Positions 727 through 43,317 of a stretch of 64,000 nucleotides of DNA are shown here, one piece after another. The notes under the pieces were generated by a model. The model saw only the letters and a program-made list of their open reading frames with translations, searched no databases and was not told where the DNA came from. Location: the NCBI GenBank assembly GCA_000004985.1, contig GG738887.1; one strand, given 5' to 3'. Numbering within the stretch: the first letter of the stretch is position 1; each line of letters begins with the position of its first letter. This DNA comes from Naegleria gruberi. Lineage: Eukaryota. Both the position numbers and the translations under genes were made by a program.

Positions 727-3700
727 ATGTGTAAGTAATTAACAACCCTAACATCAGTCATTAATCACCCAATAATCAAATAATCCATCCTGTTGATTAG
801 CAAGTGATATTAAAGGAACATTGACCAAGATTAAAGGTGGTAGTGTTCAAAATCGTTTGGCAGCCATTGGTGCTTTATTTTCTTTAGCATCAGATGATGA
901 TATTAGAGAGGAAATTAGAAATATGGGAGGAATTGGTACTCTTGTTGGATGTTTAGAGGATAATTCTGATCCACGTATTCCTAGACAAGCCTGTGGTGCT
1001 CTCTTGTAAGTTTTTTATTACCAACTAATTTACTTACATAATAATTATTTAATATTATAATTATAATAATTATTAATTGAATGATGATTGTTTATTTATA
1101 TTATATCTATCTAGAAACATGGCAAATGATGATCAATGTAGAGAGGAAATTCGTGATTATGGTGGTGTTGAATTGATGCTCAAGCTTATTGAAAATCAAT
1201 TCAAAGATGCAACCAGTGTTGAATATGCTACAGGTGCCTTGCTAAATTTGAGCTCTGACGATGACACTAGAGAAATGGTTAGAGAAGCTGATGGTGCTCG
1301 TATTTTGGCTCGTTGCTTGTCTGATGCTCCAAGTGAAGAATCTAGAAGAAACTCTGTTGGTGCCATTGCTCAATTGTGCTTTGATCAAGAATTTACTAAA
1401 CAATTGGTTTCTGGAGATGCTTTGAAACACATTGTTGAATGTTTAAACTCAAGTGATGAAGAAACCAGAAACAGGACCTCAGGTTGTATCTGGAATTTGA
1501 GTGTTACTGCTGATGAAACTAGAGAAGCTTTGGCTCGTGAAGGTTGTTTGGAAAGTTTGGTCAATTTATTGCAAAAAAGTGAGGATGTTAATGAAGATCC
1601 TGAAACTGTTGGTAATTGTGTAATGTAAGTTTTATATAATTATATAGAAATATTCTAATTTTAACATTTTACAATAATTACTATTGCACTACATTATATT
1701 GTCAAATGTATGATGTTTAAACAGGTGTCTTTCAATTTTAAGTTCAAATGACATGGTTGCTGAAACTTTACGTGAAATGGACGGATGTTTCGAAATGATT
1801 ATTAAATTATTGAGTAATTCTGATTCTACTATTGCTCAAAATGCTGCGGCTGCCGTTTGGAATTTGGCTCACAATGATGATAACAAGAAGGTTTTGGCCA
1901 ATTTGGACACAATGGCATCTTTGATTCCACTTTTGGATTCTTTCAACTCTGCTTCCGATTGGGAAGCTTTGGAAAAAGTTTTGGGTGCTGTTTTAACTAG
2001 CAGTACCAATGACAATATGGCTGATCAATTCCGTGAAAATTCTGGATTTGGTCCACTCAAGACAATCATTGAAGGCAAGGTTGATCCAACCACTATTCAA
2101 AATGACCAACATAAGAAGTGTGTATTATATGGTATTATTGGATTTGCCGTTTTGGCTTACAATGATAAGAATAAGGATGAGATTCGTGAATGTGGAGCTA
2201 TTGCTGACTTGATTGAATTACTTTCTTTGGAGTATGATGACGATTTACTTGAAAAGGTTACTGCAGCCATTTTGAACTTGACTCACAATATTGAAAATAG
2301 AACAGCCATTCGTAAGCTTGACGGTATTTCAGTTCTTATTGAGCTTCTCTACCATCACAATGAAACCATCTCAATGAACTCTGCTGGTTGTTTGTGGAAT
2401 TTGAGTAACGACGAGGCTTGTAAAGCAGTTATTCGATCTTTGGGTGGTTTAAAGCCATTGTTAGCTTTGATTGGAGGTGGCAAGGTTGAACCACGTTCAA
2501 AGAAGGACAGAAAGATTTCAAAGGAAGCTATTGAAGCTGCCAATCGTCTTGTTGAAGGTGAAGAAGAAGAATCTGAACCAGTTCCAGAAGAAAAATTCGA
2601 TGTTATGGAATTTGTTGAAGACATCTTCAATCCAAAGAAGGACTTTGAAAAGTTGGACGATGAGGATGGATCTTCTGATAAGAAGAAACCTCAAGTCAAC
2701 AGAAATGGTGAACAAAGAACCACTACTGGTGCTGGTGTTGAATATGGTGAAGAAACTGGCATGACTCCTGCCAAGATCATTGTTGGTGCTGCTCGTATCG
2801 ATATTAAGAACAGAAGAAAGGTTGCAGAGGCCGAACGTGAAAAGAAGGAGGCAGAAGAAAGAGAAGCCAGAAGAAAGGAACGTGAAGAAAGAGAACGTGA
2901 AAGAAAACGTAAGGAAGAAGAAGAAAAGAAGAGAAAGGAAGAGGAGGAAAAGAAGAGACAAAAGGAAGAGGAGGAGAGAAAGAAGAAACTTGAAGCCGAA
3001 ATGAAAAAGAAGGCTGAAGAGGAAGCTGAAAAGGAAAGACTCCGTTTGCTTGCTGAAGCTGAACAAACAAAGAATCAACTTAAGGAAGCTTTCAATGCCA
3101 AACACAAGAGAAAGGGTGTTAAGGATGAAGACATTGATTGGGATGAAATCTATGAAGATGGATTCACTCCTTCTGCTACTAAGGATGAAGCCAAGGACAA
3201 GTTGGAAGGTCAAATTGATGAATATTCCAATCTCATTGACCCATTCAATAATAATGGTGTTTATGATCAACTCACTCCTGATGATATCAAATTCATTGAA
3301 AGTGAAATTGAAAGAGCTAAACGTTTCCTCGCTGAAAATCCAAATGCTACCAAGGAACAAATTGATGATGCCAGAAGAGAACTTGATGCCAATGTCAAAC
3401 CAATCATTGAAAGAGCTAAGGCCAGAAAGGTTCTTGGCGACATGACCACCAGCATCAGAGATCGTCTCTTGAATGACTCTGAATTGTTGAACAATTTGAC
3501 TCCTGAAGAAAGAAAGGAATTAGAACAAGCTGTTGCTGAAATGGAACAATGGTTACGTGACCATCCAGATGCTACCAAGGAAGAAATTGAAGAAAAGGAA
3601 CGTGAATTGCTTGCCAAGATTAAGCCAATTTTGGCTCGTGCTGCTACCAGAAATGATTTGGAAAATTATGCTCATGATTTGAGAAAGAAGGCAGCCAATG

Positions 3701-6700
3701 AAGATGATGACATTGATTTTGACTTGTTGGGTGATGAAGATAAGGGTACTTTCCATGATGCTATCAAGGAAATTGAAGATTTCTTACTTGAACATCCAAA
3801 TGCCTCTGCTCAAGATATTGAGGACAAGAAGGATGAAGTCAAGAGGCGCATTGATCCAATCATTAAGAAGGCCAAGGCCAAGAAGGATCTCTTACAATAT
3901 GCTGCTGACATGAGAGATAGATTGAACAATGATCATGATTTGAAGAAGAGACTCACTCCAGAAGAAAAGAGATCTATTGAAACTGCTTTGGATGACTTTG
4001 ACAAGTGGATTAAAAACCATCCAAATGCTGATGCTGAAAGCTTGAACAAGCAAAAACAAAGACTCAAACAAAAGTTGGATCCAATCGTTTCCAGAGCTGA
4101 TGCTCACAACAACTTGGACGAATACATCAACAGAACAAGAAAGAGAATTGATGATAATGATGATTTGGGTGAATTGTTGGATGATGCTGACAAGAGAACT
4201 CTTCAAAAGGAATTGAAGGATGCTGAAGAATTCTTGAAGAAGGTCGAAAAGGAACCAGTCAAATTCACTGCTGAAGAAATCGACAACAAGAAGAAGGAAA
4301 TCAAGGAAAAGCTTGCCCCTCTTATTGAAAAGGCTGAAAAGAGAAGAGAACTCAAGGACTATGCCAGCCAAATTCGTGACATTGCAAGCAATGATAATGA
4401 ACTTGCTGAATTTATCACACCAAAGGAAAGAAAGTTGCTCGAAAATGAGGCTAAGGAACTTTCTGACTGGGTAAAAAACAATAAGAAGGCCACTCCTCAA
4501 CAAGTTGAAGAGAGAAGAAAGAAGGCTGAAGAAAAGGTTCAACCAATCTTGGATAATGCCAATCAAAGAAAGGCTCTCAAGGAAACTGTTCAAAGATTGA
4601 GAGATCGTTTGAATGATGACAAGTATGTCGAAAAGTTGAAACCAGAAGAAAAGAAGGCTCTCAAGGATGCTGCTGATGAATTGGCCAACTTTTTGGCTAA
4701 GAATCCAGAAGCTTCTGCCAAGGAAATTGAACAACAAAGAGAAAAGACCAATGAAAAGGTTCTTCCAATCTTGGACAGAGTTAGAGAACAAATCTCACTC
4801 GAAAATCATGTTAACAATGTTAGAGATAAGGTTAGAGATGATCCAGCATTGAACAAATTCTTATCTGATAAGGAGAAGAAGGCCATTGAAAAGGCTGCTC
4901 AAGATGTTGAAAAAGTCCTTGCTAGTAAACCATCCATTAAGGATACCAAGAAGGCAAGAGAAGATTTCAATGATGCTGTCAAGCCTCTCCTTGAAAATGC
5001 TGCTGCTAGATCTAAACTTGCAATCTATGGTGATAAGGTTTTGGATGATGTCTTGTCTGATCCACATACAAGTGATAAGGATAAGGAAGCTGTCAAGAAG
5101 GCAAAGAAGGAATTGATTGATGACTTTTTGGCTAAGAATCCAGATGCCACTAAGGAACAACTTGATCAACAAAGAAAGAAGTTCGATGAAGCTGTTGCTC
5201 CAATCACTGATCGTATTAATAAGAAGAAGGAATTGGAAAGAAAGATCAATGATATCAAGAGAAAGTTGGATGATCCAGATTCTGCAATCTGTTCAAAGGC
5301 AACCCCAGAAGAAAGACAATATTTGGCCTCAAAGGTTGATGAATTGTCTAAATTCTTGAAGGAAAATCCAAATGCCTCTGCTAAACAATTGGAAGAAAAG
5401 ATTAACGAATTCAACTCTCAAGTCGAACCAATTGCCAAGACATGCGAAAAGAGAGACCAATTAGAAAAGCAAGCAAACACTATCAGAGACAGATTAGTTG
5501 ATCCAAATGACGATCTCAACAAGTATATGAGTGAATCTGAGAAGACTCAACTCAGAGACGCTACCAATGAAGCTCTTCGTTTCTTGGAAAAGAATCCATC
5601 TTGCTCATCCTCAGAAGTTGCTCAAGCCAAGAAGAAATTGGACGATAAGACCAAGGAATTGGTTGAAAAGGCCAAGGCTAAGGGTGGTTTGTATAAGAGA
5701 GCTGGTGGACTTCTTTCTGATGTTAACAATTATGGTGAAGGCGGTCTTGGAGGTAAATTGAACAGTGTTGAAAAGAGCGAAATTGCTGATAAATGCAATG
5801 ATATCATCAATCACTTGAACAAGAATCCAAACCTCTCAACCAAGCAAATCAAGGAAAAGGAGAAGGAACTCAACAAGGTTGTTGCTCCAATTCTTGATAA
5901 GATCAGAGAAAGAGACAATCTCCGTGAAATTATTAATGGTATTCGTGATCAAATCTTCAATATTGATGATAAACTTGAAGATGACAAGTCAGATGCTTCC
6001 TCTGATTCTGACAGTGATCGTGAAGATTTGGAAGATTTATTGGATGGACCAATCAAGAAGTCTAAGGCTCAAAGAGATGAAAAGGGTAAGACCGACAAGT
6101 TGGGTAACTTCTTGTCCAACGAGGAAAAGAAGAAGATTGACGAAACTACCAAACAAGCATTGCAAGCTATTGATTCTGATCCAAATCTTTCAGTCTCTGA
6201 CTTGAAGGAACAAGCAAGAAACCTCAAGCAAGACACTGAAAATATCTTGAAGGCTGCCAAGACCAGATCTGATCTCAACGACTATTTGAATAACATTCGT
6301 GAACAAGTCAAGGATGAAGATGGTATGATTGCTAATCACTTGAGTGAAAAGGATAAGAAGTTGATTGATGAAACTATTAATGAAGCACTCAACTGGTTGA
6401 ATAAGGAAGGTGCTAATGCTACACCAGAAGCCGTTGAAAAGAAGAAGAAACAAGTTATGGACAAGATTGATCCAGTCATTCGTAATGCCAAGCAAAGAGG
6501 TGAATTGGAATCAATTGCTAACAAGGTTAAGCAACGTTTAGAAGATGATGTTGATTTGACATCAGCTCTCAGTGAAAAGGACAAGAAGGCATTACATGAT
6601 GAAGTTCAAGAAATTCTTGATTTCTTGAAGAAGAATCCTAATGCTACTCCTGAACAAATTCAACAAAAGAAGAAGCAATTCGAGGAAAGAGTTCTTCCAA

Positions 6701-8871
6701 TTCTTGAAAAGGCTGAAGCCAGAAACAAGTTGAAGGATTTGACCAATGAACTCCGTACCAGACTCTATGATGAAGATGATCTTGGAAACAAGCTCAGTGA
6801 AGCTGATAAGAAGAAGGTTGAAAAGTTGATTGATGAAGCTGTTGACTTTTTGGAAACTAATCCAGATGCTTCAAAGGAAAAGATTGATCAAAAGAGACAT
6901 GCTTTGGAATCCAATGTCATGCCAATTATCAAGAAGGCTGAAAAGGCCAAGAAGGCTGCTGACTATGCATCTGCAATTAGAGACAATTTGGAAAATGATT
7001 CTCTCCTTAAGGATGCTCTCACTCAAGAAGAAAAGAAATTGATTGATACTCACACCAAGGATTTGCTTGACTGGATTGAAAAGAATGCAGCCACTGCTAC
7101 TTCTAATGAAATTAGTGATAAGGAAAGACAATGTAAGGAAAAGGTTGATCCAATCCTCAATAAGGCCAAGGCAAGAAATGCTCTCAAGGAAGATATTGAA
7201 AAGTTGTATGAAAAGTTGAATGATGAAAACAAGCACAAGTTCTCTGAAAAGGAAAAGAAGGCCATTCTCGATGAAATCAATAAGGCCAATGACTACCTTG
7301 ATACAGTTGCCAAGAATCCAAATACCACTTCTGATGATATTGAAAAGAAGAGAAACGAATTGAAGATTGCCACTCAACCATTGGTTCAAAAGGCCAAACA
7401 AAGAAAGGAATTGCAAGAATATGCTGCAGGTGTTCGTGATAAACTCCAAAATGATAGCAAGCTCACCTCTCGTATGACTCCAGAAGAAAAGAAGACCCTT
7501 GATAATGCTGCTAAGGAAGCTCTTGACTGGGTCAACAAACATGGTGATGATGCCTCATTGAATGATTTGAAGGAAAAGTTGCGTCAAACTAAAGCTAAGG
7601 TTGAAGCTACTATGCAACGTGCTGAGAAACATCAAAAGTTGGAAGATATGGCCAACAAGATCAAGGATAAGGTTGAAGGTGATTTGAAGGACTGCATGTC
7701 TTCAGAAGAAAAGAAGACTGTTCTCCAAGAAGTTCAAAAGACTCTCGATTGGTTGAACAAGAATAAGACTGCTCCAATTGGTGAAGTTGAAGCTCAACAA
7801 AGAGCTCTCGAAAATAAGATTGCTCCAATTATGGAAAAGGCTCAAACCAAGAAGGATTTGGCTGACTTTGCTAATACTGTTAGAGACAGATTGAAGAATG
7901 ATAAGGAACTTGCCAGTCTCTTGTCAGCTGAAGAAAAGAAGGCCATCAATGATGCTGTCCAAGAAACTCTTGATTGGTTGAACAAGAATCCAAATGCTTC
8001 TCTTGCTGAGTTGAAGGATAGAAAGAAGAAATTGGAAGATGTTGTTAACAATGTTCTTGGTGATAAGGAAGCTGCTGAAAACTTTAGAAATTATGCTGAA
8101 AAGGTTTTGGAAGTCTTGAAGAAGAATAAGCAAGTTCAAAAGGACTTGACTGATGAAGAAAAGCGTGCCATTCAAGACTTTGCTGAAGAAGCCAGAGATT
8201 GGTTATTAGAAAATCCAAATGCCACTGCCAGACAAATCAGAATGGAAAAGAAGAGATTGGAAGAAAAGTTGGGCAAGATTAAGAAATTCAAATTTGAAAT
8301 TCCTGCCACTCACTACATTGGTAACTTCTCAGAACGTACCAGATGGGGTGATGACAGTAAGCGTACCAAAGATATCAACTCATTATTGGGTTCATACATT
8401 AAGAAGGGTGACAAGGTTGCTACTACTCCTGTCAAGCCAACAGCCACCTCTACTCCAACAAAGACTCCACAAAGAAATTTGAAACCAGTTGCCACTCCAA
8501 AGAAGCTCACCAAGGAAGAAGAAGAAGAAATGAAATTGTTCGATACCATGAAGTTCAATAAGGGTGGTTTGATTCAAGCTAAATTACAAAGTCTCATGGG
8601 AAGTGTTGGCTCTGCAAGTGCTGTCAGCGGTTCAGTTGTTGAAGAAGAAGAAGAACCAGCTGTTGTTTATCCATACTCTGAATTGAAGAATAACAAGCAA
8701 AAGAAGTATCCATCAGGTATTGACATTAACAAGAGAGAACAATACTTGAGCAATGATGAATTCCAACAAATTTTCAAGATGTCTCGTGATGAATTCAAAA
8801 ACTTGCCAGAATTCAGACAAACCAAATTGAAGAGAGATGCTGAATTATTTGCCTATGCTTATGAACTTTAA
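727..8871 (+). CDS. Giant armadillo-repeat / E-R-K helix / about 22 Hsp70-C-terminal-lid-like tandem modules / villin-headpiece protein (about 2621 aa); join(727..730,801..1005,1115..1624,1725..8871)
   Basis: Rebuilt from track ORFs 821..1009, 1077..1628 and 1753..8871. The first exon is ATGT, followed by a GTAAGT donor at 731; acceptors are TAG 798-800, TAG 1112-1114 and CAG 1722-1724; further donors are GTAAGT at 1006 and 1625. All junctions keep frame (7866 nt) and give GALL|NMANDD and GNCVM|CLSIL. The N-terminus has ARM-type motifs (GALLNLS, WNLS, IREEIR). An E/R/K-rich block follows (ERKKEREERERERKRKEEEEKKRK). The repeated module fits the pattern L..YA..IRD.L..D..L...L...EKK.I......L..WL..NPNA...EI..K..EL.....PI..KA. 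The C-terminus reads YPYSELKNNKQKKYPSGIDINKREQYLSNDEFQQIFKMSRDEFKNLPEFRQTKLKRDAELF, close to the villin headpiece [35 protein letters not shown]. Confidence 0.75.
3250..8290 (+). repeat. Coding tandem array: about 22 diverged copies of a ~198-nt (66-aa) unit inside the giant gene
   Basis: The NPNA(T/S)..E.I motif recurs at a 63-70 aa spacing, seen as ENPNATKEQIDDARRELDANVKPI, DHPDATKEEIEEKERELLAKIKPI, EHPNASAQDIEDKKDEVKRRIDPI, KNPDATKEQLDQQRKKFDEAVAPI, KNPNATPEQIQQKKKQFEERVLPI and so on. Copies are diverged at the nucleotide level. Confidence 0.8.
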
Positions 8872-10566: not shown

Positions 10567-13513
10567 TTACAAAAGCTTGGTGAGCTTATCGAATCTTGGA
10601 GGATCATTTGGATCTGTACGTTTTTGAATTTCTTTCTGAATAACTACTAAATCTGAAGATGCTCTATTTTTGACAATTTCGTTTCTGAATATTTCTGGAG
10701 AACGATTATTGATTTGTTCGAATGCCTCACAAATTTTGTCAATGAGCATATCATAAACTCGTTTGGAATACTTTTTCTGTTCAAATTGATCAGAACTAAG
10801 GAAGGTGCTCGAACCCAATGTTCTATAAACACTATTGGCTTGCTTGCACATGGTAATGAATGGTGTTGGATTCTTATCATTTACATTAGTCCAATTATAA
10901 TTTGGAATTTCAGATAGTTGGTATTTGAGAGCATCACCCAGAATTGAGACAATCTTTTCGAAAATAGCAATTCTGTGCTCTAGTAAATCAGTTATAAAAT
11001 CTCCAAATTTGACAAGTTGCTTCTTCTGACCCTCTTGAAGTGCTGTTTCAATCTTGGATTGAATGTAAGGCATCAAGAGAATCAAATAATGCAAACAATC
11101 AGAGGCCAGGATTAAATGTTTTGGTGTTATACTTGTGATGGCACTATTGACCTCTCTTGCCTTGGCCATGAGTACCAATTCTTTGAGTTCTGAATTGTAA
11201 ACTTGCAATAATTGCAAAATTCTTCCATGAAGATCAATTGCACTAATAAATGAAAAATCGTTTGATAATAGCTGAGAATATTGATAGATAAACTTGAGTA
11301 GGCAGAGAGCACTGGTAGATAATTTGAATTTGATACCATTGGCTAAAATATAAGATGATTTGTCTTCTTCTGCAGTCTTGGCATTCTTCTGGGAGGTAGT
11401 AGAGGCAGGAACAGTTGTTGGAGGAGGTAAAGACATGGCTTGAGCTTCACCAGTCAATAGGAATGCACACTTTTGATACTTTTCAGGAATGGATGGCACG
11501 GCTTCCCAAGTATCTCTGGCAAGTCTCTTCTTTAATCTTTGGACATAAGTGGTGTGGAAATCATCCAAAAATACCTGTCCATGATGTTGTAATTTTCCTT
11601 TCAGTATGGTACATTTCTTATAAACCATACTGTCTGATTTGGTGATGAATTTACTACCTGTAGCCATGTATGTGGAAAATAGAGTTGGTGAAAATTTGGA
11701 AATGACCTTATCAATACCAGAGCAAAAGTTTGAAAGTTGTTGTTGAGTACTCTCGTGCATGAAGGATTGAATTTTGGCAACTTCACGGCCTAGGTTTTTC
11801 AGTTTTACAGTATTAATGATAATCTTGTCGGTACTGGAATCGGCTTTCTCATTTTCTTCTTTGCAAAATTGATCCACAGCAAAGCAAAAATCTGTAAATC
11901 TCTGGAGTTTAATTAGGGCTAATGAAACAATGGAATCAAACTGAATTTAAATGTGTCATCAAGGCAAATGTTACAAAATTACTTACACTCTTACACCATG
12001 AATCTGCCAAATCTTTGGTCACTTCGGTGGAGGGTGTGAAAACTGGTGGCTTGATCGATTTCATCAGCTCTTCAGTCTCTGAAGGTACTAGCTTTTTGGC
12101 ATGAGCCATTACAGGTACTGCAAGATTTCTGTATAGAGTGGCTTTCAATAATGAAGCGAGTTTAGTGTTCCAATCTGAAGAAGTCGTATCCTTTTGAAGT
12201 ATTTCAGCTATTAATTCCGAAATTTCTTGTTTGATTGTCATGTCGATTACACCTAATTCAACTTCAATTTCTTTTGGTATGTGCTTTAGGCAGTTAACAT
12301 TGCTCAGTTCACTGTGTTCCTGAAGAGTAGATTCAATAGTATTGATAATTTCAAGGGCTGATAAGACGTCCCCTCTATTTGCAACCATAACCTTGACAGC
12401 AGTCAGACTTTGTTGAATAGAATCAATCAAGACAATATACTCCAATGTCTTGGTTAGATTTTGCTTTTTTCTTACAAGATTACCAACTTCCAAAGGTTTC
12501 AAAACAGCATTCTCCTCATATTTCTTAATTTTAGATCTTAAAGATCCAACTAGAGGTATAGAGCTGATCAGTGTTTCATACAGATCATTGTATTGCATCA
12601 TGGAATCGAAAATTTCACTGGATCTCTTATTGACCTGAGTTTGAACTTGGTTTTCAACCTGATCCAGATAATAACTCAATTTCTCCTGCAAGAGTAGTGA
12701 TGCAGATTCATTCTCCGAGCTAAAAACCTTATTGAAATAAGTTGGTGTTGAAAGTTCAAAATTTTCATCAAAAAAGTAGGCAGGTACGCCCTCTCTCCTT
12801 GACATGTAATCCACAATGTTAAGATTACTTGTTAAACTCTTTTCCGATTTGTGTGGCACCAACTTTGTCATTTCTCGATTAAATGTTTCTATTAATTGAA
12901 TATATTCTTTAAAACTATCAATATTAATAGAATCTCCGAATGTTGGTGAAATTGTTGATGGTGATGTTGTTACATTTCTATTATTTACATTCTTTACTTT
13001 CGGGTTTTTCACAAAACACGATTCTACATTTACATCTTCAAATTTTCTAGCATCAACATTTGCAATTGCTTTAAAATCCTCATCCGTCAAATCATGAATT
13101 TCCATTAATTGTTTTTCCAATAATTCAGCCGATGTTAATGAAGTAGCACTATTCAATGAAGAACTACTACTTGATCCAAACCATGATGAAAACAGTGTTG
13201 ATAAACTTGGTGATGAATTATTCAAAGCCTTCGGATCATTCAAAACCGATGAAAAATCCATGTTATTATATGAAGTAAATGATGAGTAATACTTGTTAAT
13301 ACGATCTCTCGGTGCTATATTTTGAAACTCTTCTTCCATCCTCGTTAAACGTTCTCTTGCTGATGGCGTTGATATAAAACTGGGCAAACTCTCATCTTCT
13401 GTATTGTTGTTGCTTCCTGCTGTTGTTGTTTTGTTAGTCTTCACTGTTTGGACGCTGAGAATTTCTATTGAAAAATCATCATCATCCGATTCTATTTTTC
13501 GTTTATTTTCCAT
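10567..13513 (-). CDS. vps54: VPS54 (GARP complex subunit) homolog, about 966 aa; complement(join(10567..11940,11987..13513))
   Basis: Exon 1 ends ...TGT AAG AGT with a GTAAGT donor (+ strand acttac at 11981-11986). The acceptor is ttcag (+ strand ctgaa 11941-11945), giving a 46-nt phase-0 intron. The track's second ORF 'start' is an in-frame GTG. Segments LLLQEKLSYYLDQVENQVQ...SLRSKI and SVLNDPKALN match my recall of human VPS54 LLQEKLSHYLDIVEVNIAHQISLRSEAF and ALNDPRL; the C-terminal half is also collinear. Confidence 0.75.
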
Positions 13514-13676: not shown

Positions 13677-14882
13677 TTATTTAAATATTTTTATAGAGTG
13701 ATTGTTTTCATCGGCAACCAAGAGTTGACCATTCTGATCGTCTATTGTTAAGCCGAATGGACAATACAATGGTCCGAATGAACCGTACGATCTAACAAGT
13801 TTGAGTCTTTCGTCTTTCTGTGGGCCGACTAATCCTGAACTATTCCATTCGAAGGCTAAAATTCGATTTTTGAGTGGACTTGAAACTATAATCTTTTCAG
13901 GTCTCAGAGTATTCTCCCTACTCTTATCAATGCAGATTCCTAGTGGACAGATTCCAAACAGATCTGAAGAATTTACCGAATCTTGATCATCATTTAGAAA
14001 TCCTTCTGGGATGAAGGAGCAAACGAGTTCTAATTGAGAAGGATTTGAGGATGATTCTCTTAGAATCTTAATGGAGCCGTTCCAATATTCTGAAATGATT
14101 AGTTCACCAGCAAGAGAAAAGTCAATCATCCAAGGCTCATGCAAATGACTCGTTTCGAATAAAGGTTGTGATGAGATAATTCCAGGAGGAGATTTTAAAG
14201 GAAATGAAAAGGAAGAAATGGAACGAATGAAACTACCATCTAAGGAACTTAATATGACAATTCTATTATGTCCACTATCACAGACGTACACTTGTTTGTT
14301 TCTTACTGAGATTCCAATAGGATAATAAAACTCAAGTGCTGAATCGACTAAAGAATTGGCTGCATCTTCTTGTGAAGGTTGTTGAATGGCAGTTTCCACA
14401 TCAGAAGCAAGATCTATTTCGTCCAAATTCAATTCTTGTCTCACTTGACGAAAGTTCTTTGCCTTCTCTCCTCTTTCCCATAGTTTCGTATATTTTACAT
14501 CATCTAACATGAGCCAAATTCTCAATTTGCACACTTTTGTAAAACTCAAAGTGATGAACAAGTTGTCAAAATCGTCTTCATCCACAGCTAGGCATTGTGG
14601 ACTTTCGTCCAACTCTATCGAATAGAGAAACATTTTTGTAAATAAATTGAAAAGTGCAATTTTTCGATTTCCAAAATCACTCACAAACACAATTCCCATC
14701 TGATATGAAATTTTCACATCTTTCGGATAAGAAAATCTATAAGAATCCGAATCTTCTTGACCTAAAGAATGAATTTGTTCGAAATTTGCAGAAAATGAAA
14801 TTCTATTTCGTTGATTTGAAGATAATTTATCTCTAAGCATTGGTTGCAGAGGTAGAAAGTCAGAGAGATGGAGTGTTGTCAT
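13677..14882 (-). CDS. NHL-repeat beta-propeller protein (401 aa)
   Basis: Repeated NHL-type blades are visible (VCDSGHNRIVILS, QLLVADENNHSIKIFK). The start is aaagaaATG. It is a paralog of the gene at 32055..33080. Confidence 0.65.
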   Translation of the reverse strand: MTTLHLSDFLPLQPMLRDKLSSNQRNRISFSANFEQIHSLGQEDSDSYRFSYPKDVKISYQMGIVFVSDFGNRKIALFNLFTKMFLYSIELDESPQCLAVDEDDFDNLFITLSFTKVCKLRIWLMLDDVKYTKLWERGEKAKNFRQVRQELNLDEIDLASDVETAIQQPSQEDAANSLVDSALEFYYPIGISVRNKQVYVCDSGHNRIVILSSLDGSFIRSISSFSFPLKSPPGIISSQPLFETSHLHEPWMIDFSLAGELIISEYWNGSIKILRESSSNPSQLELVCSFIPEGFLNDDQDSVNSSDLFGICPLGICIDKSRENTLRPEKIIVSSPLKNRILAFEWNSSGLVGPQKDERLKLVRSYGSFGPLYCPFGLTIDDQNGQLLVADENNHSIKIFK

Positions 14883-34678: not shown

Positions 34679-37600
34679 ATGAATATGAGGATTCTTCTCT
34701 TCCTTCTCTTATTGGCACTTCTCTCCCCAAGTATTTCCTCCACCTCATCATCATCATCATCATCAACACTCCTTAATCGCATGTGTAGTAGTGATGATAG
34801 AGCTCCCTCTTTCAATCAGAGAGATTTGTGTTCAGCATCAAATAATTCAATGATTACTCCCTCCTGGTGCACTCGTCATAATCCATTCTCTTCGGTTCCT
34901 TATTTATTTAGTGATAATAACTTTCCGAGTTGGTTAAATGTTGAGGATGGAGCCATTTGTAATACGGCCAATCCCTACGTGTTCAGTTTTATTAATGGAA
35001 CAATTAGATATTCTGCTCCGTATGCTCTCGATGGAAATGCACAAGTATTGCCATCATCATCTTCATCTTCATTGAGTTATTCTGCAATGATTTCACCAAG
35101 AGACAAGTGTAGATTTATATCAAAGATTAATACGATTGAGTTTAGTGGTGAATTTGGATTCAATAGTAGTACTACGATTGAAGCTAAGAGATATCTGGTT
35201 TTGGGATTAGTTTCTGGACAAATTATTCTAATGAATTTCAATAAGGATGATGAGATTTACTTGTTGGGAAATACTGAAGATAAGACAAATATTAGAACAT
35301 TGGAAACTTTGACAAATGGTACTGATTTATATGTTTCGACTGTTTCATTTGGTAATTCAGTTTCTCTATTTTATGGAAATTCTTCAAATATTGCTTCTAT
35401 TCAACGTTGTGGAAACATTTTACAATTTGAATCGAGAAATCAATTTCCACCAGATGTCAAATTAATTACTCACGATGGAAAAATATACGCCTCTCTCATT
35501 GTTTACAATAGTACCGAAATGTGCTATTTCATTTACTTTTATCAACTAGATGGTTGCTCATTCACAAAACAATTCCAGTACAAGGTTAAGGAAAAGTGGG
35601 AATCTAATCTGAAATTCAAAATTTCCACTCAAGTTGGTGGATTTGACAATGTTCTCACCACTAACAATTTTGTATATTCGAGAACTATACTCCAATTCTC
35701 CACAAGAAAACATGTGAAAATCATTGAAATGACCACACAAGATATTGAAATGGATCTGAGTACCAATGACAATTCCACATTTTATGTTGCCACTGATGAG
35801 GAAGAAATTACAGCATCTACCATAGCATATGAATACATTAGAAGGATTGACTTTACAAAATCCTCATGCGCCAAAATTTATGCCAACCCAGCTCAAGGTG
35901 CAAACTTGATTCTTTCACTCAAGAGGAGAAATAGCAATTATTTGAAAGCAAGAAATTTATTAGAGTTTGGAAATTATCCATTCTATAGATATTCGAATAG
36001 AACTTATAATAATCCTGTTGGAAGAACAGTTGAGTGCAATGTTGCTGATGGTACATTTTATGATGCTTTAACACAGAGTTGTACTCATGCTTTTGAGGTA
36101 GAGAATGTGATTGGAGACATTTCTATTGGAGAAGAAATTCAAGAGCTTTCGAGTAGATTCCATGATGCTCCACTCAATTATTCACAATACTTTGAAGTTG
36201 ATTTGACTGAAAAACTTGACACCAAAGATATTTGTAATAATATTGCTCAATTTCCAGCACTTGCTTCCTTATGTGAAGAAAATTTAAATCAAACAGAGTG
36301 TGCATTTGATGCATTTACCATGTTTGGAAACAAGTTCCTTCCTAAAATATTAGCAGATTTTTGGGTAAATCAAATTTACATTTCTAAAACTGGAAAGGAG
36401 GTTTTGGTTTATGGTTTACAACAAGAAATGTGTTCACTCAATGGTCTTTATATGGACAATTATAATACGATTAGTTTAATGGGAGAATCTACATATATGG
36501 ATATCACAAGGAATGCTCAACACATGTTTGTAACAGTGTCCAGAGAACGATGGGAGTTACAATCCCTTACCAGATTTTACAATATTTGTAAACAATTAGA
36601 AGTAGATCCAGAAGATCCATTTTTGAAACCATTTGCTGAGCAATGTAAGGCAAATACACCTTCTCCAGTCACTCTTAATCAATTTGGACAATACACCTCA
36701 AGTTGTTTCAGTGGAATGAGTTGCCCATCTCTAAAACATGTGGAAATTGATATTATACCTGAAGGATTTTACACAACCAGACCAAATGTTGTCAAAGAAT
36801 GTGAGGAAAAATACTTTTGCTTACAGGGTGTGAGACAGCCATGTCCAATTGGATTTTATTGCCCAAACAAGGGAATGACTAAACCATTGCCATGTAAATT
36901 CTCCACTTCACATAATTTACACAAACGAGGTCTTTCATGGGAGGAACCAAAGGGATCAGATACTTGCTACTCACAAGCCAACAGTTTACCTCAACCTTGT
37001 TTGAATGGTACTCTATGTATTACACCTTATTTTCCACCTATTCCTATTTCTCCTGGTCTTTATTTGGAAGGAAACAAGATTAAAGAATGTCAATTGGGAG
37101 ATTATTGTAATTTGGGAAGATATATAGGTGAAAATCAAAATAGCTCAATATTGGCATGTCCTGAAAACACCTATTGTGAAGAACCCTCTACAATGGAACC
37201 TTCATTGTGTATTCCAGATGAAAAGTTATCATTATATTGCCCACCTGGAACTACATTCAGAAGACCATGTAATAAGGGATTCTATTGCCCAAAGCCAAGT
37301 GTTGAAGTTCCTTGTAAATTGACTCAATATTGTGAGGAGGGATCCTATATTCCTGAAACATGTCCAGCTGGTTATTACTGTCCATCACCATCTGAGAAGT
37401 TGATTTGTCCAAAGGGATTTTATTGTGTTGTTGGCAGTGTTTATCCTACCAATTGTCCGACATTTAGTATTTGTCCAGAGGGAACTAAGGCCTATGAAGA
37501 TTATGCTCTTGGTGTCTTGATTGACATTTTAATTATCATGGGAGTAATTTTGACATTTAAAATTTATTCGTGGACTTCTAATTGTTATATTCGATATAAG

Positions 37601-39731
37601 GCAAAGAAACTCAAAAACCAACAAGATTTGGAATTACTAACCATAGATGAAAATGATGCTGAATATATTGTTGTGGAACAGAAAACTCAAAAATTGACAC
37701 TTTCACAATGTATGCAAGGACTTTACAAGGACATTGGAGTGGAAATTTCATTTGAGGATTTGTCAGTTGACTTGAAAACAAGTAACAGAAGAATTTTGCA
37801 TAATCTTAATGGTAAATTTGGCGCTGGTAGATTGACCTGTATTATGGGTCCCAGTGGAAGTGGTAAGACCACCCTATTATCAGCCATTAGTGGTAAAGCA
37901 TCCTATGCCAACATTTCAGGTTCTATCAGAATTAACGGAGAAATATCATCCATGAAGAAATTCAAAAATATTTGTGCATTTGTACAACAAGAAGATTGCA
38001 TGCACAGAGAGTTGACTGTGGAAGAGTGTATTTATTTCAGTGCTAGAACAAGATTGGCCTCTCAAGTGAGCCAGAAAACTGTGGAATCCATAGTGAATGG
38101 AGTGATTCAAATATTGGACTTGGAAAATGTGAGACATTCTGTAATTGGAGATGAGAATAAGAGAGGAATATCTGGTGGTCAGAGAAAGAGGGTCAGTATT
38201 GCTATGGAGCTAGTAGCTTGTCCTTATGTTTTATTTTGTAAGTTTTAACATTTTCGAAAATGAAAGACTTATTAATTTTTCAAATATAGTGGACGAACCT
38301 ACATCTAGTCTCGATGCATACAGTAGCTTTGAAGTGTCTAAGGCAATGAAAGATATTGCCTCGAGTGGAATTACAGTTGTTGCAGTTTTGCATCAGCCAA
38401 GATTTGAAATTTTTGAAATGTTTGACGATGTGGTCTTGCTTGGAAATGGAGGTAGGATTGTGTATATGGGACCTTCCTCTGATGCTTTGCCTTACTTTGA
38501 GGAGAAACTCAATTTGGAGCCACCACCAAGAGTGAATCCGAGTGATTTCTTTTTGGATGCAATTTATGATCCTAAATTGGCATATGAATCACAGAAAAAG
38601 ATTAACGGAAAACAAGTTCAACAATATACATGCAAGGAAATGTTTGATGTTTGGGAAAATAATTATAAGAAACTTGACGAATTTAATGGAACCGATTTTT
38701 CCAAATTAGTGATGGAAGAGAAGGCAAAATCTCAGAATCCTCTCATTCATTTCTACATGAACATTAATAGATCATTCCTATTGAAGATTAGAAACATTTT
38801 TGGATTTTTCATGGATTGCCTATTGGTATACGTTGCTGGACTAGCTCTTGGATTGACTTTCCTCAAAGATGCCTATGTTGGACCTCTTCCTGAAGACATG
38901 ATTGACTCGTGTCCAGCAGCCATGAGAAAAATCTGTGAATATCCACTCAACAATCCAATCATCAACATGGCAAGTACCATTCCACTTGCTTTAGGATTGT
39001 GTGCAGGTATGTCCTCACTGACAACATTCGGTTCCAGACAAGAACAATTAATTTTCAAAAAGGAAAGAGAATCTGGACTCTCAGTTCTTGCCTATTTCAG
39101 TTCTAAAATGTTGGAACAATTGCCAAACATTCTTCTTGGACCAATTGTCTTTCTTTCCATTTTCTTTTCACTCTACTCTCCAAGAGCAACATTTGGAGAA
39201 TATTATTTGGTTCTCTTTTTAATGCATTTCACAACATTTGGATTGGGAAGTTTGGTGAGTGTTGTTGTACCTTTGGATTTGATTCAATTGGCAACTGCAG
39301 TTTCAATTCTAGTTTCTCAATTGGTTAGTGGTTCTAAACCAACTCTTCCACAAATGAAAAAGATTATTCCACCTCTGTTTTGGATTAGTTGCATTTCGTA
39401 TATTCGATATGCCCAGGAAGCACTTTACCTCATTGAAATCAAATATTATAAGGACATTTTTGACATTAGTTCATCATTGGAAATGTTTGATTATCATTTA
39501 GAGGATTTGGATTATTGTATCTTTATGATTCCAGTCTTTGGAATTGTTTTCAGATTATTAACATTGATAGTTTTGTATCAGAAGAGCGACGATTCATTGT
39601 GGAATACTTGTTTAATGTTTATTTCTTATTATTCGAATTTTGATCATTTTAAAACTGGCATGGTTTCAATGTGGAGAAGAATACAAATGGTAATGATATG
39701 GAAAGGTCATGAAAAAGAAGGATTATTGTAA
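34679..39731 (+). CDS. ABCG-type half transporter fused to a ~930-aa N-terminal cysteine-rich ectodomain (about 1666 aa); join(34679..38237,38290..39731)
   Basis: It has a signal peptide (MNMRILLFLLLLALLSPSISS), a large domain with repeated C-P-x-G-(F/Y)-Y-C units (CPIGFYCPNKG, CPPGTTFRRPCNKGFYCPKPS, CPAGYYCPSPSEKLICPKGFYCVVG), a TM helix (LGVLIDILIIMGVILTF), Walker A GPSGSGKTTLL and the ABC signature ISGGQRKRVSIA. A GTAAGT donor at 38238 and atatag acceptor restore the Walker B (VLF|LDEPTSSLD). A 6-TM ABC2-type membrane domain follows. Confidence 0.75.
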
Positions 39732-39954: not shown

Positions 39955-41070
39955 ATGAAGATATTCATTCTGCTACTAGTGCTGACAACAGTTGTCATTC
40001 ATGGCCAAACAACATCGGTTCATGATTGGGAGAAGAAACAAAATATGCTCACCAAGAGAAGTGACCTTTCGGCTCAAACTATTGGAAACTTGATTTATTT
40101 GACTGGTGGATGTACTTCTAATCAACCAATAGCAAAAGATGCCACTTGTCCATCAATCACCAATTCAATGGAAATTTACAATCCACAAACTAATTCATTT
40201 ACTTTTGGAAAAGCAATGCCTAGGCCAAGATATAGACACACTACTGTTGCTATTCAAAATAGATATTTATTTGTGATTGGTGGAAGAGATTTGAATGAGA
40301 ATATTATTACCCAAGTGGATGTATTCGATACTGTTAATGGAAACTGGACGATACATAATGCTACGTTGACTTCTGACTGTTGTTCTGACTCTATTGCTTT
40401 CGTATTGAAGGATAGCAATGGAAATGAGAATATTTACTTACCTGGTGGATATTACGCCAATTACACAACCTCAGGAAAAGTTTTACAGTTGACTACCAAA
40501 AATGGAGTTTATTCTGGAACATTCCAATCAGGTTTAGTTTCAGATATGAATGTCAAAAGAGGTGATTCCATGACATTAACCTATAATAATAAGGCCTATG
40601 TAATTGGTGGATTTTTGGAAGATAATTTTTGTAAACCAATTACAACTGTGGAAGTATACGATTCCTCAACTAATAAGTGGACAATTACATCACCACTTTC
40701 ACATGAGAGAGCTGATGGTGCTGCTATCATGGTTGGTTCTGCATTATTTGTTTTGGGAGGAGAATCTAAGGATAAATCATGTAATGTTTCATTACCTGTC
40801 AGTGATGTTGAGAAATTTGACACTGCTAGCGGGAAATGGAGTGATTTTGTGGCTCTTCCAACAGCTCGTTTTAGACAAACTGGTGAAATTGTCAACAATG
40901 TCATGTATGTGTTTGGTGGACAAATTGAAATTGAGATAGCTCAGCAATATTCAGTTTTGGATTGGACCTATGCTTACAATTTCACAGATTTTGTAAAGAT
41001 TTCTGCAGCCAACTCGCAAATAATTTCATGGATATTTGTTTTCTCATTACTTTTCATTCTAGTAGTATAA
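39955..41070 (+). CDS. Secreted Kelch-repeat beta-propeller protein with a C-terminal hydrophobic (GPI-anchor-like) tail (371 aa)
   Basis: It has a signal peptide, Kelch-type blades (YLTGGC, RYLFVIGGRD, AYVIGGF, LFVLGGES, MYVFGGQ) and a C-terminal IISWIFVFSLLFILVV. Confidence 0.6.
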   Translation: MKIFILLLVLTTVVIHGQTTSVHDWEKKQNMLTKRSDLSAQTIGNLIYLTGGCTSNQPIAKDATCPSITNSMEIYNPQTNSFTFGKAMPRPRYRHTTVAIQNRYLFVIGGRDLNENIITQVDVFDTVNGNWTIHNATLTSDCCSDSIAFVLKDSNGNENIYLPGGYYANYTTSGKVLQLTTKNGVYSGTFQSGLVSDMNVKRGDSMTLTYNNKAYVIGGFLEDNFCKPITTVEVYDSSTNKWTITSPLSHERADGAAIMVGSALFVLGGESKDKSCNVSLPVSDVEKFDTASGKWSDFVALPTARFRQTGEIVNNVMYVFGGQIEIEIAQQYSVLDWTYAYNFTDFVKISAANSQIISWIFVFSLLFILVV

Positions 41071-41313: not shown

Positions 41314-43317
41314 ATGAAGAGATCAACAATTCTCTCCGCGCTCATCATGATGCTGCTGAGTTTTGCAGTCGTGATGGTTTGTGCCGGAACATTAAATAAT
41401 TTGGCTGATGAATTATTAAAGAATGGAAATTATGTTAGAATGGAAAGCGAGAGAGTCAATAGTAGAGCATCTAAAAGTATTGTACCAAAGGGATGGAGAG
41501 TAGTTGAAGGAAAATTTGAAGATCAACATGTTCATCTTACATTTGCATTGAAGAATCAAAATATTGAAAAGTTGAAAGATTTATTGTTGAAGATTTCTGA
41601 TCCAAAGCATCCACAACATGAAAATTATCTTACCACTGAACAAGTTGCTAGAATGACTACTCCTACTGATGAACACAAGAGTATTGTTTTGAATTATATC
41701 AAGTCTATTCCAGGAGCTCTCCTTGTCAAGGTTTCCAAGCATGAAAACTTTGTTTCTGCATTGATGCCACTCTCTTCTGTCAACAAGTACTTTAAAGCTG
41801 ACATGAAAAAGTTCACTCATGAAATTACTGGAGCTGTTGCTTTTAGATCCGAACAAGGATATGCATTGCCACAAAAGTTGGCTGAAGCTGTTAATTTGGT
41901 TTCTGGTGTTTATGGTTTCCCAACTATGAATGCCAAGTTTGATAAAAAGCTTGAATCTAAGAGTAGTCAAAGAGTCACTCCACAATTCATTTGGGCTAGA
42001 TACAATGTCACCTTCCCAAGCACTGTTAGTCCAAAGTCAACTCAAGCTGTTGCTTCATTCCTCCAACAATACTATTCCAATGCTGATTTGCAACTCTTCC
42101 AAAATACTTTCAAGCTTGAAAGACAAACTCCAAAGGTTATTGGACCAAATGATGAATCCAATCCTGGTGTTGAAGCTTCTTTGGATATTCAATATTTGTA
42201 AGTTTTTTCAACACGGTTATTTACCAACATTTCATTGTTTCAATTAATTAATTGGAAATAATTGTGGAATAATTTGGACTTGTTGGATAAAATTTTAAAA
42301 TAATACAGGATGGGTGTTGGTCAAAAGATTAATACTACCTTTGTTTCCACTGAAGGTGTCAATCCAATTACTCACCAAGAAAGATTTGTTCATTGGGTTA
42401 TTGGTCAACAAGAATTAGGAGATTCTTCTGCTTGGGTTCACTCTGTTTCATATGGTGATATCGAATATCAAGCTACCGTTGCTTTGGCTGATCAATTAGA
42501 TGCTGAATTCATCAAATTTGGTGCTACTGGTAGAACTGTTTTAATTGCTTCTGGTGATGATGGTGCTAGATGTAATGATAATGGAAATGCCTTTGAACCT
42601 GAATGGCCAACCTCTTCCCCATGGATTACCTCAGTTGGTGCCACTGAACCATCTGATTCTGATTATGAAACCACAACTAGCTGGTCTGGAGGTGGCTACA
42701 GTAATTATTATGATCGTCCAAAGTATCAAGATGAAGCTGTCAAGGCCTACCTTGCCTCAAATGCTGCTCCTCCAACTTCATACTTTAATGTTTCTGGTAG
42801 AGCTTATCCTGATGTTGCTGCATGTATGTATTTTATATTTCTAATCTATATCAATATCATCATACCAATAATTATTTTTCAATTATTTTCAATTAATTAT
42901 AGTTGGTGTTAGTAAGTAGTATTAATAATTATTCAATTTTATTAACTTGTTATCAGACTATCAAGTTTATGTTAATGGAATGATTCAAAATGTTGCTGGT
43001 ACCTGTAAGTAGTTAACATTTCACTTCTTTCAATAATCAACATTTCAATAGCTGCCTCAACACCTTGTTTCGCTGGTATTGTTTCCTTGATGAATGATGC
43101 TCGTTTCAGAGCTAACAAGAAACCACTCGGTTTCCTCAATATTTGGCTCTATCAACATGCTGGCAAGACTTCTGGTGCTTTCTATGATATTGTTAAGGGT
43201 AACAATGCTCACGGTGCTTGTCAATATGGTTTCTCTGCTACTAATGGATGGGATCCAATCTCAGGTTGGGGTGTTCCAAATTATAAGATTTTGCAACACT
43301 TGGCTCTCCTTAAATAA
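41314..43317 (+). CDS. Sedolisin (S53, tripeptidyl-peptidase-like serine-carboxyl protease), 570 aa, 4 exons; join(41314..42197,42309..42823,42957..43004,43052..43317)
   Basis: A signal peptide and S53 pro-domain are followed by ...EASLDIQYL|MGVGQ... A GTAAGT donor at 42198 pairs with acceptor tacag at 42304-42308. A GTATGT donor at 42824 pairs with acceptor tatcag at 42951-42956. A GTAAGT donor at 43005 pairs with acceptor caatag at 43046-43051. The spliced product reads YPDVAAYYQVYVNGMIQNVAGTSASTPCFAGIVSLMNDARF, containing the sedolisin catalytic-Ser motif GTSAS.P. Confidence 0.8.

What the first reader, a model, noticed from the sequence alone, without database searches (positions are those of the whole stretch)
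34679..39731. ABCG half-transporter fused to a ~930-aa cysteine-rich extracellular domain
The topology is signal peptide, large ectodomain, one TM helix, cytosolic NBD, then 6-TM ABC2 domain. ABCG half-transporters normally start with the NBD. The ectodomain ends in tandem C-P-x-G-(F/Y)-Y-C repeats resembling GCC2/GCC3 ephrin-receptor-like modules, and its first 600 aa have no obvious relatives. This looks like a receptor-like ABC protein. The only intron sits inside the Walker B motif (VLF|LDEPTSSLD).
Basis: partly seen in the sequence, partly recalled or inferred. Interest (0 to 1): 0.55.

Follow-up and report, generated by a model that had tools for sequence, protein, structure and literature searches.

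The report
ABCG28-type transporter with giant propeller ectodomain
This is an already-annotated Naegleria gruberi gene for an ABCG28/WBC30-type ABC half-transporter, a eukaryote-wide subfamily in which an outside-facing cysteine-rich stalk and an extra membrane helix precede the ATPase; the amoeba version adds an undescribed ~600-residue beta-propeller head.

Summary
One gene (34679-38237 and 38290-39731, with a 52-nt GT..AG intron inside Walker B) encodes a 1666-aa protein. Its order is signal peptide, ~915-aa Cys-rich ectodomain, one TM helix, NBD, then ABCG-type TMD. The protein is 100% identical to the NCBI model NAEGRDRAFT_70994 (UniProt D2VPU9), so the organism is Naegleria gruberi, not a dictyostelid.

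The topology is not a one-off. The CxxGx[YF]C repeats plus TM0 before the NBD occur in all 16 ABCG28/WBC30-like transporters I sampled, from plants, corals, chytrids, Capsaspora, Andalucia, Amoebozoa and Anaeramoeba. Four of these are transcript-derived.

The separate-genes reading is not supported. The split N. lovaniensis annotation comes from a 157-aa gap with a frameshift.

Verdict: a new variant of a known kind, of moderate interest. The ectodomain's function is untested.

The parts
34679..38237 (+). CDS exon 1 (residues 1-1186 plus the first base of codon 1187)
   Evidence: Uninterrupted ORF. Coordinates checked. Identical to NCBI XP_002673932.1.
38238..38289 (+). Only intron, 52 nt, GTAAGT...ATATAG, phase 1, splitting the Leu codon of the Walker B motif VLF-L-DEPT
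   Evidence: Sequence. Splicing restores the frame and the LDEPTSSLD motif. The N. lovaniensis ortholog reads VLFLDEPTSSLD without an intron.
38290..39731 (+). CDS exon 2 (rest of the NBD, ABCG membrane domain, C-terminal tail, stop codon)
34679..34750 (+). Signal-peptide-like leader (residues 1-24, MNMRILLFLLLLALLSPSISS...)
   Evidence: Kyte-Doolittle scan. Judged a signal peptide by eye; no dedicated predictor was available.
34850..36643 (+). Distal ectodomain (residues 58-655). It comprises a beta-propeller-like core (about 143-495), a helical insert (499-560), a further five-strand beta segment I take to be part of the propeller (563-623), and helices (624-658). This is the lineage-restricted part.
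36644..37492 (+). Cys-rich stalk (residues 656-938): 27 Cys and eight C-x2-[GNKT]-x-[YF]-C motifs. The last ~80 residues are the subfamily-wide membrane-proximal module CPxG[FY]YCPxPxxKxxCPxGxYCxxGSxxPxxC....CPEG.
37508..37564 (+). TM0: the single pre-NBD transmembrane helix (residues 944-962). A K/R-rich stretch follows it, which is the predicted cytosolic side.
   Evidence: Hydropathy. Helix 916-940 in model numbering. An equivalent hydrophobic segment lies between the last Cys motif and Walker A in all 16 sampled family members.
37796..38306 (+). Nucleotide-binding domain (ABC_tran, residues 1040-1192; the span includes the intron). Walker A is at 37847-37870, SGGQ at 38171-38182, and Walker B LDEPT at 38237/38290-38303.
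   Evidence: Pfam PF00005, E 3e-25. Motif coordinates. The closest solved structures are ABCG/PDR proteins: Pdr5, Cdr1, ABCG16, ABCG2, ABCG25.
38751..39584 (+). ABCG-type membrane domain (residues 1341-1618)
   Evidence: Pfam PF19055 ABC2_membrane_7 at 131.7 bits (cut-off 22.7) and PF01061 at 46.9 bits. Hydrophobic helices.
39585..39728 (+). C-terminal cytosolic tail after the last TM helix (residues 1619-1666)
   Evidence: A tail of similar length is present in the Willaertia, Acrasis and N. lovaniensis paralogues but absent from the plant and coral members.

Best explanation
One Naegleria gruberi gene (NAEGRDRAFT_70994) encodes a member of the ABCG28/WBC30-like subfamily of ABCG half-transporters.

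Shown:
- The polypeptide starts with a cleavable-looking signal peptide.
- About 915 residues are exposed on the extracytoplasmic (cell-surface or lumenal) side.
- It crosses the membrane once (TM0), then continues as a normal cytosolic NBD with every catalytic motif intact, followed by an ABCG-type membrane domain.
- The ectodomain has two layers. The membrane-proximal layer is a disulfide-ladder stalk of CxxGx[YF]C hairpins shared by the whole subfamily from plants to jakobids. The distal layer is a beta-propeller fold with a helical insert, found only in Naegleria, Willaertia, Acrasis and unnamed environmental relatives.

Inferred:
- Like other ABCG half-transporters it works as a dimer that hydrolyses ATP to move a small substrate out of the cytosol. 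The one characterised subfamily member, Arabidopsis ABCG28, is described as a polyamine transporter.
- The two rigid stalks hold the propellers above the exit of the translocation pathway.
- There the propellers act as a binding platform for a partner, a matrix or glycan ligand, or an acceptor of the exported compound.
For: Gene model and identity.

Domain order, intact motifs and ABCG assignment.

Subfamily assignment: PF19055 scores 131.7 bits. The best named relatives are 'ABC transporter G family member 28-like' and 'white-brown complex homolog protein 30'.

The Cys repeats and TM0 are subfamily-wide. BLAST of the ectodomain hits the pre-NBD region of ~90 family members. The alignment shows ten Cys that are at least 90% conserved. 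A motif and hydropathy survey of 16 members, including MMETSP and TRINITY transcripts, shows the same layout.

Type I orientation: the leader, the K/R cluster after TM0, 43 Cys and 12 sequons on the N-terminal side.

Propeller and stalk folds. The mastigoneme paper describes equivalent Eph-CRD-like tandem domains as a rigid disulfide ladder (PMC10602792).

Fused architecture: of 45 N-domain representatives of at least 600 aa, 41 also carry the Cys region and 27 carry the ABC part, always downstream of the N-domain. N. fowleri and Anaeramoeba members are listed.

ABCG28 as a polyamine transporter: PMC9774701, citing Do et al. 2019.
Against: There is no transcript, protein, localisation or transport data for this gene or for any giant-ectodomain member.

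Substrate, dimer state and membrane (plasma membrane or vesicle/vacuole) are extrapolated from distant relatives that are ~30-35% identical in the ABC part.

The signal peptide and the orientation are inferred from hydropathy and composition, not from a dedicated predictor.

The propeller's alignment is shallow (8-9 sequences over that region), so the blade count and the surfaces are uncertain.

The nearest ortholog, in N. lovaniensis, lacks TM0 and the start of the NBD in the public assembly. If that is real, this particular ortholog group is dispensable or decaying in that lineage.
Confidence: 0.72

Rival explanations
1. Receptor-like or ligand-gated ABC protein. The propeller head binds an external ligand, and the signal passes through the stalk and TM0 to switch the ATPase or transport activity on or off. 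Alternatively the ABC module serves mainly as a signalling engine.
For: The architecture 'extracellular propeller, Cys-rich rod, single TM, cytosolic catalytic module' is that of many receptors. Foldseek ranks Sema and LGI1-EPTP ligand-binding propellers first. The stalk resembles Eph and class C GPCR CRDs, which transmit conformational changes. TM0 and the membrane-proximal module are conserved with the transporter core throughout the subfamily.
Confidence: 0.15
2. The precursor is cleaved in the secretory pathway. This would release or shed a soluble propeller and stalk glycoprotein (adhesin or matrix protein) and leave a conventional ABCG half-transporter, so the fusion would mainly serve co-expression or co-targeting.
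For: The N. lovaniensis locus, as assembled, would encode a secreted ectodomain without TM0. The best structural match of the stalk is a filament-forming surface glycoprotein.
Against: No obvious dibasic or furin-type site lies next to TM0 in the sequence. A membrane-proximal Cys module fixed about 25-30 residues before TM0 in all 16 sampled members argues for a tethered function. The N. lovaniensis ABC part would also lose the first strand of the NBD, which looks like damage rather than design.
Confidence: 0.07
3. Two separate genes: an ectodomain protein and an ordinary ABCG half-transporter, wrongly merged. lovaniensis is annotated.
For: N. lovaniensis is annotated as an 891-aa protein plus a 612-aa ABC protein 58 bp apart.
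Against: In the window a single ORF runs from the start codon through the ectodomain, TM0 and the NBD as far as Walker B, with no stop. The N. lovaniensis split coincides with a 157-aa gap and a frame change at L001 12814/12815, and the annotated ABC protein starts inside Walker A. At least 27 representatives below 50% mutual identity, plus transcript-derived relatives, carry everything on one polypeptide.
Confidence: 0.03

Closest known systems
Arabidopsis ABCG28 (and ABCG24) / 'white-brown complex homolog 30'-type half-transporters (Pfam PF19055 ABC2_membrane_7 group)
   Same: It has the same subfamily signature and the same best named homologs. It has the same pre-NBD layout of signal peptide, CxxGx[YF]C repeats, TM0, NBD and TMD. 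The ATPase motifs are intact.
   Different: Plant, animal and fungal members have only ~90-290 residues before TM0. This protein has ~940, because of an added beta-propeller, a helical insert and extra Cys modules. It also has a ~48-aa C-terminal tail that the plant and coral members lack. Substrate and localisation are unknown here.
Canonical ABCG half-transporters with solved structures (ABCG2, ABCG1, ABCG5/G8, ABCG16, ABCG25) and PDR full-size relatives (Pdr5, Cdr1)
   Same: It shares the reverse NBD-then-TMD order, the ABC-2 type membrane domain and NBD sequence similarity (E 1e-18 to 1e-35).
   Different: Those proteins begin with the cytosolic NBD and have neither TM0 nor an N-terminal ectodomain. 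No solved structure of the ABCG28-like subfamily appeared among the 60 best PDB matches shown.
Eph-receptor cysteine-rich domain, Elapor1, and the Chlamydomonas mastigoneme MST1 tandem Cys-rich domains (TNFR-like disulfide-ladder class)
   Different: There is no sequence-level relationship. Pfam GCC2_GCC3, TNFR_c6 and Furin-like give nothing on this protein, and a PDB profile search gives nothing. The Cys spacing here is C-x5-C-x9/10-C. From memory, this differs from the CxxC-containing pattern of GCC2_GCC3.
Extracellular beta-propellers (Sema domain of semaphorins/plexins, LGI1 EPTP) and generic WD40 propellers
   Different: Sequence identity is 5-11%. There is no Pfam Sema, EPTP or WD40 match. 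TM-scores to Sema are low (0.35). The similarity may be no more than a shared propeller topology.
ABC transporters with large extracytoplasmic domains (ABCA family ECDs, bacterial MacB/LolCDE/FtsEX periplasmic domains)
   Same: This is a functional analogy only: a big domain on the trans side of an ABC exporter that handles substrate or partners outside the membrane. The comparison rests on my own knowledge and was not tested here.
   Different: In those families the domain is inserted between helices of the transporter's own membrane domain. Here it is an N-terminal appendage tethered by a separate helix (TM0) ahead of the NBD.

Membership tests
ABCG (White/WBC) half-transporters | One NBD followed by one ABC-2 type membrane domain (reverse order) | tested here: met
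   ABC_tran is at 1040-1192, then ABC2_membrane_7/ABC2_membrane at 1341-1616.
ABCG (White/WBC) half-transporters | Intact Walker A, Q-loop region, ABC signature, Walker B, D-loop and H-loop | tested here: met
   GPSGSGKT at 1057, SGGQ at 1165, LDEPT at 1187, SSLD at 1192 and LHQP at 1220. The NBD's closest solved relatives are ABCG/PDR proteins.
ABCG28 / ABCG24 / WBC30-like subfamily | PF19055 (ABC2_membrane_7) above its curated cut-off, and closest named homologs in this subfamily | tested here: met
   131.7 bits against a cut-off of 22.7. Named hits include 'ABC transporter G family member 28-like' and 'white-brown complex homolog protein 30', and Anaeramoeba 'abc transporter g family member 28'.
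ABCG28 / ABCG24 / WBC30-like subfamily | Pre-NBD extension: hydrophobic leader, CxxGx[YF]C repeats, then a single TM helix ahead of Walker A (a feature I derived from the family here, not from a published definition) | tested here: met
   All 16 sampled members show Cys motifs, then a hydrophobic segment, then Walker A 90-230 aa later. Ten Cys of the membrane-proximal module are at least 90% conserved in 35 sequences.
ABCG28 / ABCG24 / WBC30-like subfamily | Polyamine transport and secretory-vesicle function, as reported for Arabidopsis ABCG28 | not testable with these tools
   Only a literature statement is available (PMC9774701). The primary paper is not held.
GCC2_GCC3 / ephrin-receptor-like repeat (Pfam PF07699) | Match to the family HMM | tested here: not met
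   There is no Pfam hit on residues 1-939 or sub-segments at E<=10. PF07699 is not among the families hit by any of 36 aligned ectodomains at E<=1.
GCC2_GCC3 / ephrin-receptor-like repeat (Pfam PF07699) | Eph-CRD-like fold | tested here: inconclusive
TNFR/NGFR cysteine-rich domain (PF00020) | Match to the family HMM | tested here: not met
Sema domain (PF01403) | HMM match, and a Sema-specific propeller followed by PSI | tested here: inconclusive
WD40 repeat propellers | WD40 repeat HMM match | tested here: not met

The most novel reading that the evidence does not exclude
The heterolobosean head is a true ligand-binding propeller of the Sema/EPTP kind, sitting on an Eph-CRD-like stalk. That would make these proteins ligand- or contact-regulated ABC exporters: a receptor ectodomain wired directly to a transport ATPase. 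This class has not been described. It would also be present on the surface of the pathogen N. fowleri.
Probability: 0.08. Interest if true: 0.75.

Novelty: new variant of a known kind. Interest (0 to 1): 0.38.

Why it matters
Three things follow from this.

First, the textbook statement that ABCG half-transporters start with the NBD has a eukaryote-wide exception. The ABCG28/WBC30-like subfamily carries an extracytoplasmic Cys-rich stalk and an extra helix (TM0). I found no description of this in the held literature. No solved structure of this subfamily appeared among the PDB matches.

Second, Heterolobosea have enlarged that stalk into a ~900-residue ectodomain with an undescribed propeller. 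That ectodomain is a defined, alignable and confidently modelled domain family. It could be registered and tested.

Third, the family includes members in Naegleria fowleri. A large surface-exposed domain on an essential-type transporter would be of practical interest there.

For this particular gene, however, the finding is an already-annotated paralogue of a recognisable family, with no functional data.

Tried and rejected
- **Dictyostelid origin.** Rejected. The protein is 100% identical to N. gruberi XP_002673932.1.
- **Pfam on the ectodomain.** Scanning whole and in three pieces at E<=10 gave nothing. Scanning 36 aligned ectodomains gave only sporadic Lustrin_cystein (5/36), TNFR_c6 (1), Furin-like_2 (1) and EPTP (1) hits, and no GCC2_GCC3.
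- **Word-indexed homology searches.** The ectodomain and its alignment each returned one hit. This was an index limitation. The exhaustive HMMER search found 148.
- **PDB profile searches.** The N-domain and stalk alignments gave no meaningful hits.
- **afdb50 fold search.** The library was not available.
- **Literature.** Searches for the N-terminal extension of ABCG24/28, for WBC30 and for Naegleria ABCG found nothing relevant. Do et al. 2019 is not held.
- **N-domain outside an ABC context.** None was found. Shorter hits look like contig-end fragments.
- **N. fowleri ortholog of this exact gene.** None was found. N. fowleri proteins cluster with the paralogues P0008 and P0123.
- **Missed intron in the C-terminal tail.** Rejected. 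Heterolobosean paralogues have comparable tails.
Full report
**1. The observation**

The window has a 1189-codon ORF at 34679-38248 and a second ORF ending at 39731. At 38228-38300 the DNA reads gtt tta ttt t|GTAAGT...ATATAG|tg gac gaa. Removing the 52 nt at 38238-38289 joins the frames. It recreates the Walker B/D-loop string VLFLDEPTSSLD and gives a 5001-nt CDS of 1666 codons. Left unspliced, the frame ends after VLFCKF.

The spliced protein is 100% identical over its whole length to 'predicted protein [Naegleria gruberi]', locus NAEGRDRAFT_70994, XP_002673932.1, UniProt D2VPU9.

**2. Anatomy**

- Hydropathy gives a leader (1-24), one helix at 944-962 followed by YIRYKAKKLK, and the multi-helix block at 1341-1618.
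- Pfam places ABC_tran at 1040-1192. It places ABC2_membrane_7 (PF19055, 131.7 bits) and ABC2_membrane at 1341-1616, with nothing on residues 1-939.
- Walker A, SGGQ, Walker B, D-loop and H-loop are intact.
- The NBD's nearest solved relatives are ABCG/PDR proteins.
- The N-terminal 940 residues hold 43 Cys and 12 N-x-S/T sequons, against 3 sequons in the rest.
- 27 Cys lie in residues 656-938. That stretch has eight C-x2-[GNKT]-x-[YF]-C motifs, and near the membrane the Cys spacing alternates 6 and 9-10.
- Together with the positive cluster after the helix, this supports a type I orientation: ectodomain outside or lumenal, NBD cytosolic. This is an inference; no topology predictor was available.

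**3. Is it one gene?**

In the window the ectodomain, TM0 and the NBD up to Walker B lie in one uninterrupted exon. The only contrary hint is N. lovaniensis, where the ortholog is annotated as an 891-aa protein and a 612-aa ABC protein 58 bp apart.

tblastn shows why. N. gruberi residues 41-874 and 1032-1619 align, but residues 875-1031 have no counterpart. That missing stretch covers three Cys repeats, TM0, the linker and the start of the NBD. The two aligned blocks abut at L001 12814/12815 with a change of frame. The annotated ABC protein starts inside Walker A. This is a deletion, a pseudogene or an assembly fault, not evidence for two genes.

The positive evidence is strong. A profile of the distal ectodomain (A1) was searched exhaustively against 1.84 billion representatives and found 148 proteins, 26 of them below 1e-30. 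Among the 45 that are at least 600 aa long, 41 also contain the Cys region and 27 the ABC part, always downstream of the N-domain. Transcript-derived relatives (MMETSP, TRINITY) carry the Cys repeats, TM0 and ABC on a single ORF.

**4. What the architecture is**

BLAST of the ectodomain against the ABC-based hit list shows three nested layers.
- Residues ~830-938 are shared with essentially every 'ABCG28-like / WBC30' half-transporter. These come from monocots, corals, chytrids and other fungi, Capsaspora, Andalucia, diatom-like MMETSP transcripts and others.
- Residues ~590-830 are also shared with Planoprotostelium and several metagenomic proteins.
- Residues ~40-600 are shared only with Naegleria, Willaertia, Acrasis (partly) and unnamed environmental sequences.

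The 35-sequence alignment A3 has ten Cys conserved in at least 90% of sequences. Its membrane-proximal consensus is CPxG[FY]YCPxPxxKxxCPxGxYCxxGSxxPxxC....CPEG.

In all 16 members surveyed, the last Cys motif is followed by a hydrophobic helix, and Walker A lies 90-230 residues later. So 'signal peptide, Cys stalk, TM0, NBD, TMD' is the hallmark of a pan-eukaryotic ABCG subfamily, not a peculiarity of this gene.

The Naegleria protein is a member with a much enlarged ectodomain. N. gruberi has at least one paralogue (D2W267, 1534 aa). N. fowleri has at least two such proteins (FDP41_007827, 1692 aa; FDP41_012002). Anaeramoeba flamelloides has a 1560-aa 'abc transporter g family member 28' that shares the C-terminal part of the N-domain.

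**5. Folds**

AlphaFold2 on residues 25-965 with a 36-row alignment gave mean pLDDT 80.5 and pTM 0.73. Most of the beta-rich region 143-495 scored above 90. It is followed by a four-helix insert (499-560), a further five-strand beta segment (563-623), two helices, a chain of small hairpins, and the TM helix.
- Foldseek ranks extracellular propellers first: Sema3A at E 4e-8 with TM 0.35, and LGI1 EPTP with TM 0.62-0.64 on the target.
- I treat the Sema/EPTP ranking as a lead only. Pfam sees no Sema, EPTP or WD40 match, and a PDB profile search is empty.

The mastigoneme paper describes those domains as Eph-CRD-like and as a regularly spaced disulfide ladder that gives rigidity (PMC10602792). 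Membership of GCC2_GCC3 or TNFR_c6 was tested and not met.

**6. How it most likely works**

Shown: a catalytically complete ABCG half-transporter of the ABCG28 type, tethered by TM0 to a large, Cys-rich ectodomain with many N-glycosylation sequons.

Inferred:
- It dimerises, as ABCG half-transporters do, and exports a small molecule from the cytosol to the outside or into a vesicle or vacuole lumen.
- The only characterised relative, Arabidopsis ABCG28, is referred to as a polyamine transporter needed for apical ROS in pollen tubes (PMC9774701).
- The conserved stalk and TM0 are an integral structural part of the transporter.
- The lineage-specific propeller is an add-on binding module held above the exit of the pore.

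Rivals:
- Ligand- or contact-gated transport, that is a true 'receptor-like' ABC (0.15).
- Proteolytic release of the ectodomain (0.07).
- Two genes (0.03).

None of the functional steps can be tested with sequence tools.

**7. Novelty and score**

The gene is already annotated, and its family is recognisable from database names and Pfam PF19055. Seven literature searches found no description of the subfamily's pre-NBD ectodomain and TM0, or of the heterolobosean propeller head.

I rate it a new variant of a known kind, with interest 0.38. It is an unusual and well-supported domain accretion on an ABC transporter, and it belongs to a structurally uncharacterised subfamily. But it is not a unique fusion, and there is no evidence yet for receptor function.

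Noticed in passing
L001 12300-12900 (N. lovaniensis PYSW02000022.1, ortholog locus): The N. lovaniensis ortholog lacks the equivalent of N. gruberi residues 875-1031 (three Cys repeats, TM0, the linker and the start of the NBD). The flanks abut at 12814/12815 in different frames. This explains its annotation as two genes (891 aa and 612 aa, the latter starting inside Walker A). It could be a real deletion or pseudogene, or an assembly error.
   Followed up: partly
window 38238-38289 versus L001 12364-12430, 12603-12670 and ~14637-14700: Intron positions are not shared between the two Naegleria orthologs. N. gruberi has its single intron in Walker B, where N. lovaniensis has none. N. lovaniensis has introns in the Cys-rich region and in the last extracellular loop, where N. 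gruberi has none.
   Followed up: partly
window 39955-41070 (+): The gene immediately downstream encodes a 371-aa protein. It has an N-terminal hydrophobic leader, a Kelch-repeat beta-propeller (Kelch_1, E 4e-36) and a C-terminal hydrophobic tail. This is another probably surface or secreted propeller next to the ABCG gene.
   Followed up: partly
window 41314-42201 (+): This ORF has a Pro-kumamolisin activation domain (E 2e-25). It is probably the first exon of a sedolisin-type secreted peptidase.
   Followed up: no
window 1753-8871 (+): A 2372-aa single-exon ORF has Armadillo repeats near the N-terminus and a villin headpiece at the extreme C-terminus.
   Followed up: no
P0034 (TRINITY transcript, 1279 aa) and P0148/P0178 (2012 and 1957 aa): Other members of the subfamily have different or even larger ectodomains. 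P0034 carries a Pfam PSI (plexin repeat) domain and 64 Cys before the NBD. This suggests that the pre-TM0 position is a hotspot for domain accretion.
   Followed up: no
window 39585-39728 (residues 1619-1666): A ~48-aa cytosolic tail follows the last TM helix. It is present in the heterolobosean members (Willaertia, Acrasis, the N. lovaniensis paralogue) but absent from the plant and coral ABCG28-like proteins.
   Followed up: partly
profile positions ~470-564 of A1 (residues ~560-655; window ~36356-36643): The segment around NAQHMFVTVSRERWELQS...DPEDPFLKPF is the most widely conserved part of the distal ectodomain. It recurs in many representatives that lack the rest of the propeller, for example Anaeramoeba. 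It may be a separate ancient module between the propeller and the stalk.
   Followed up: no
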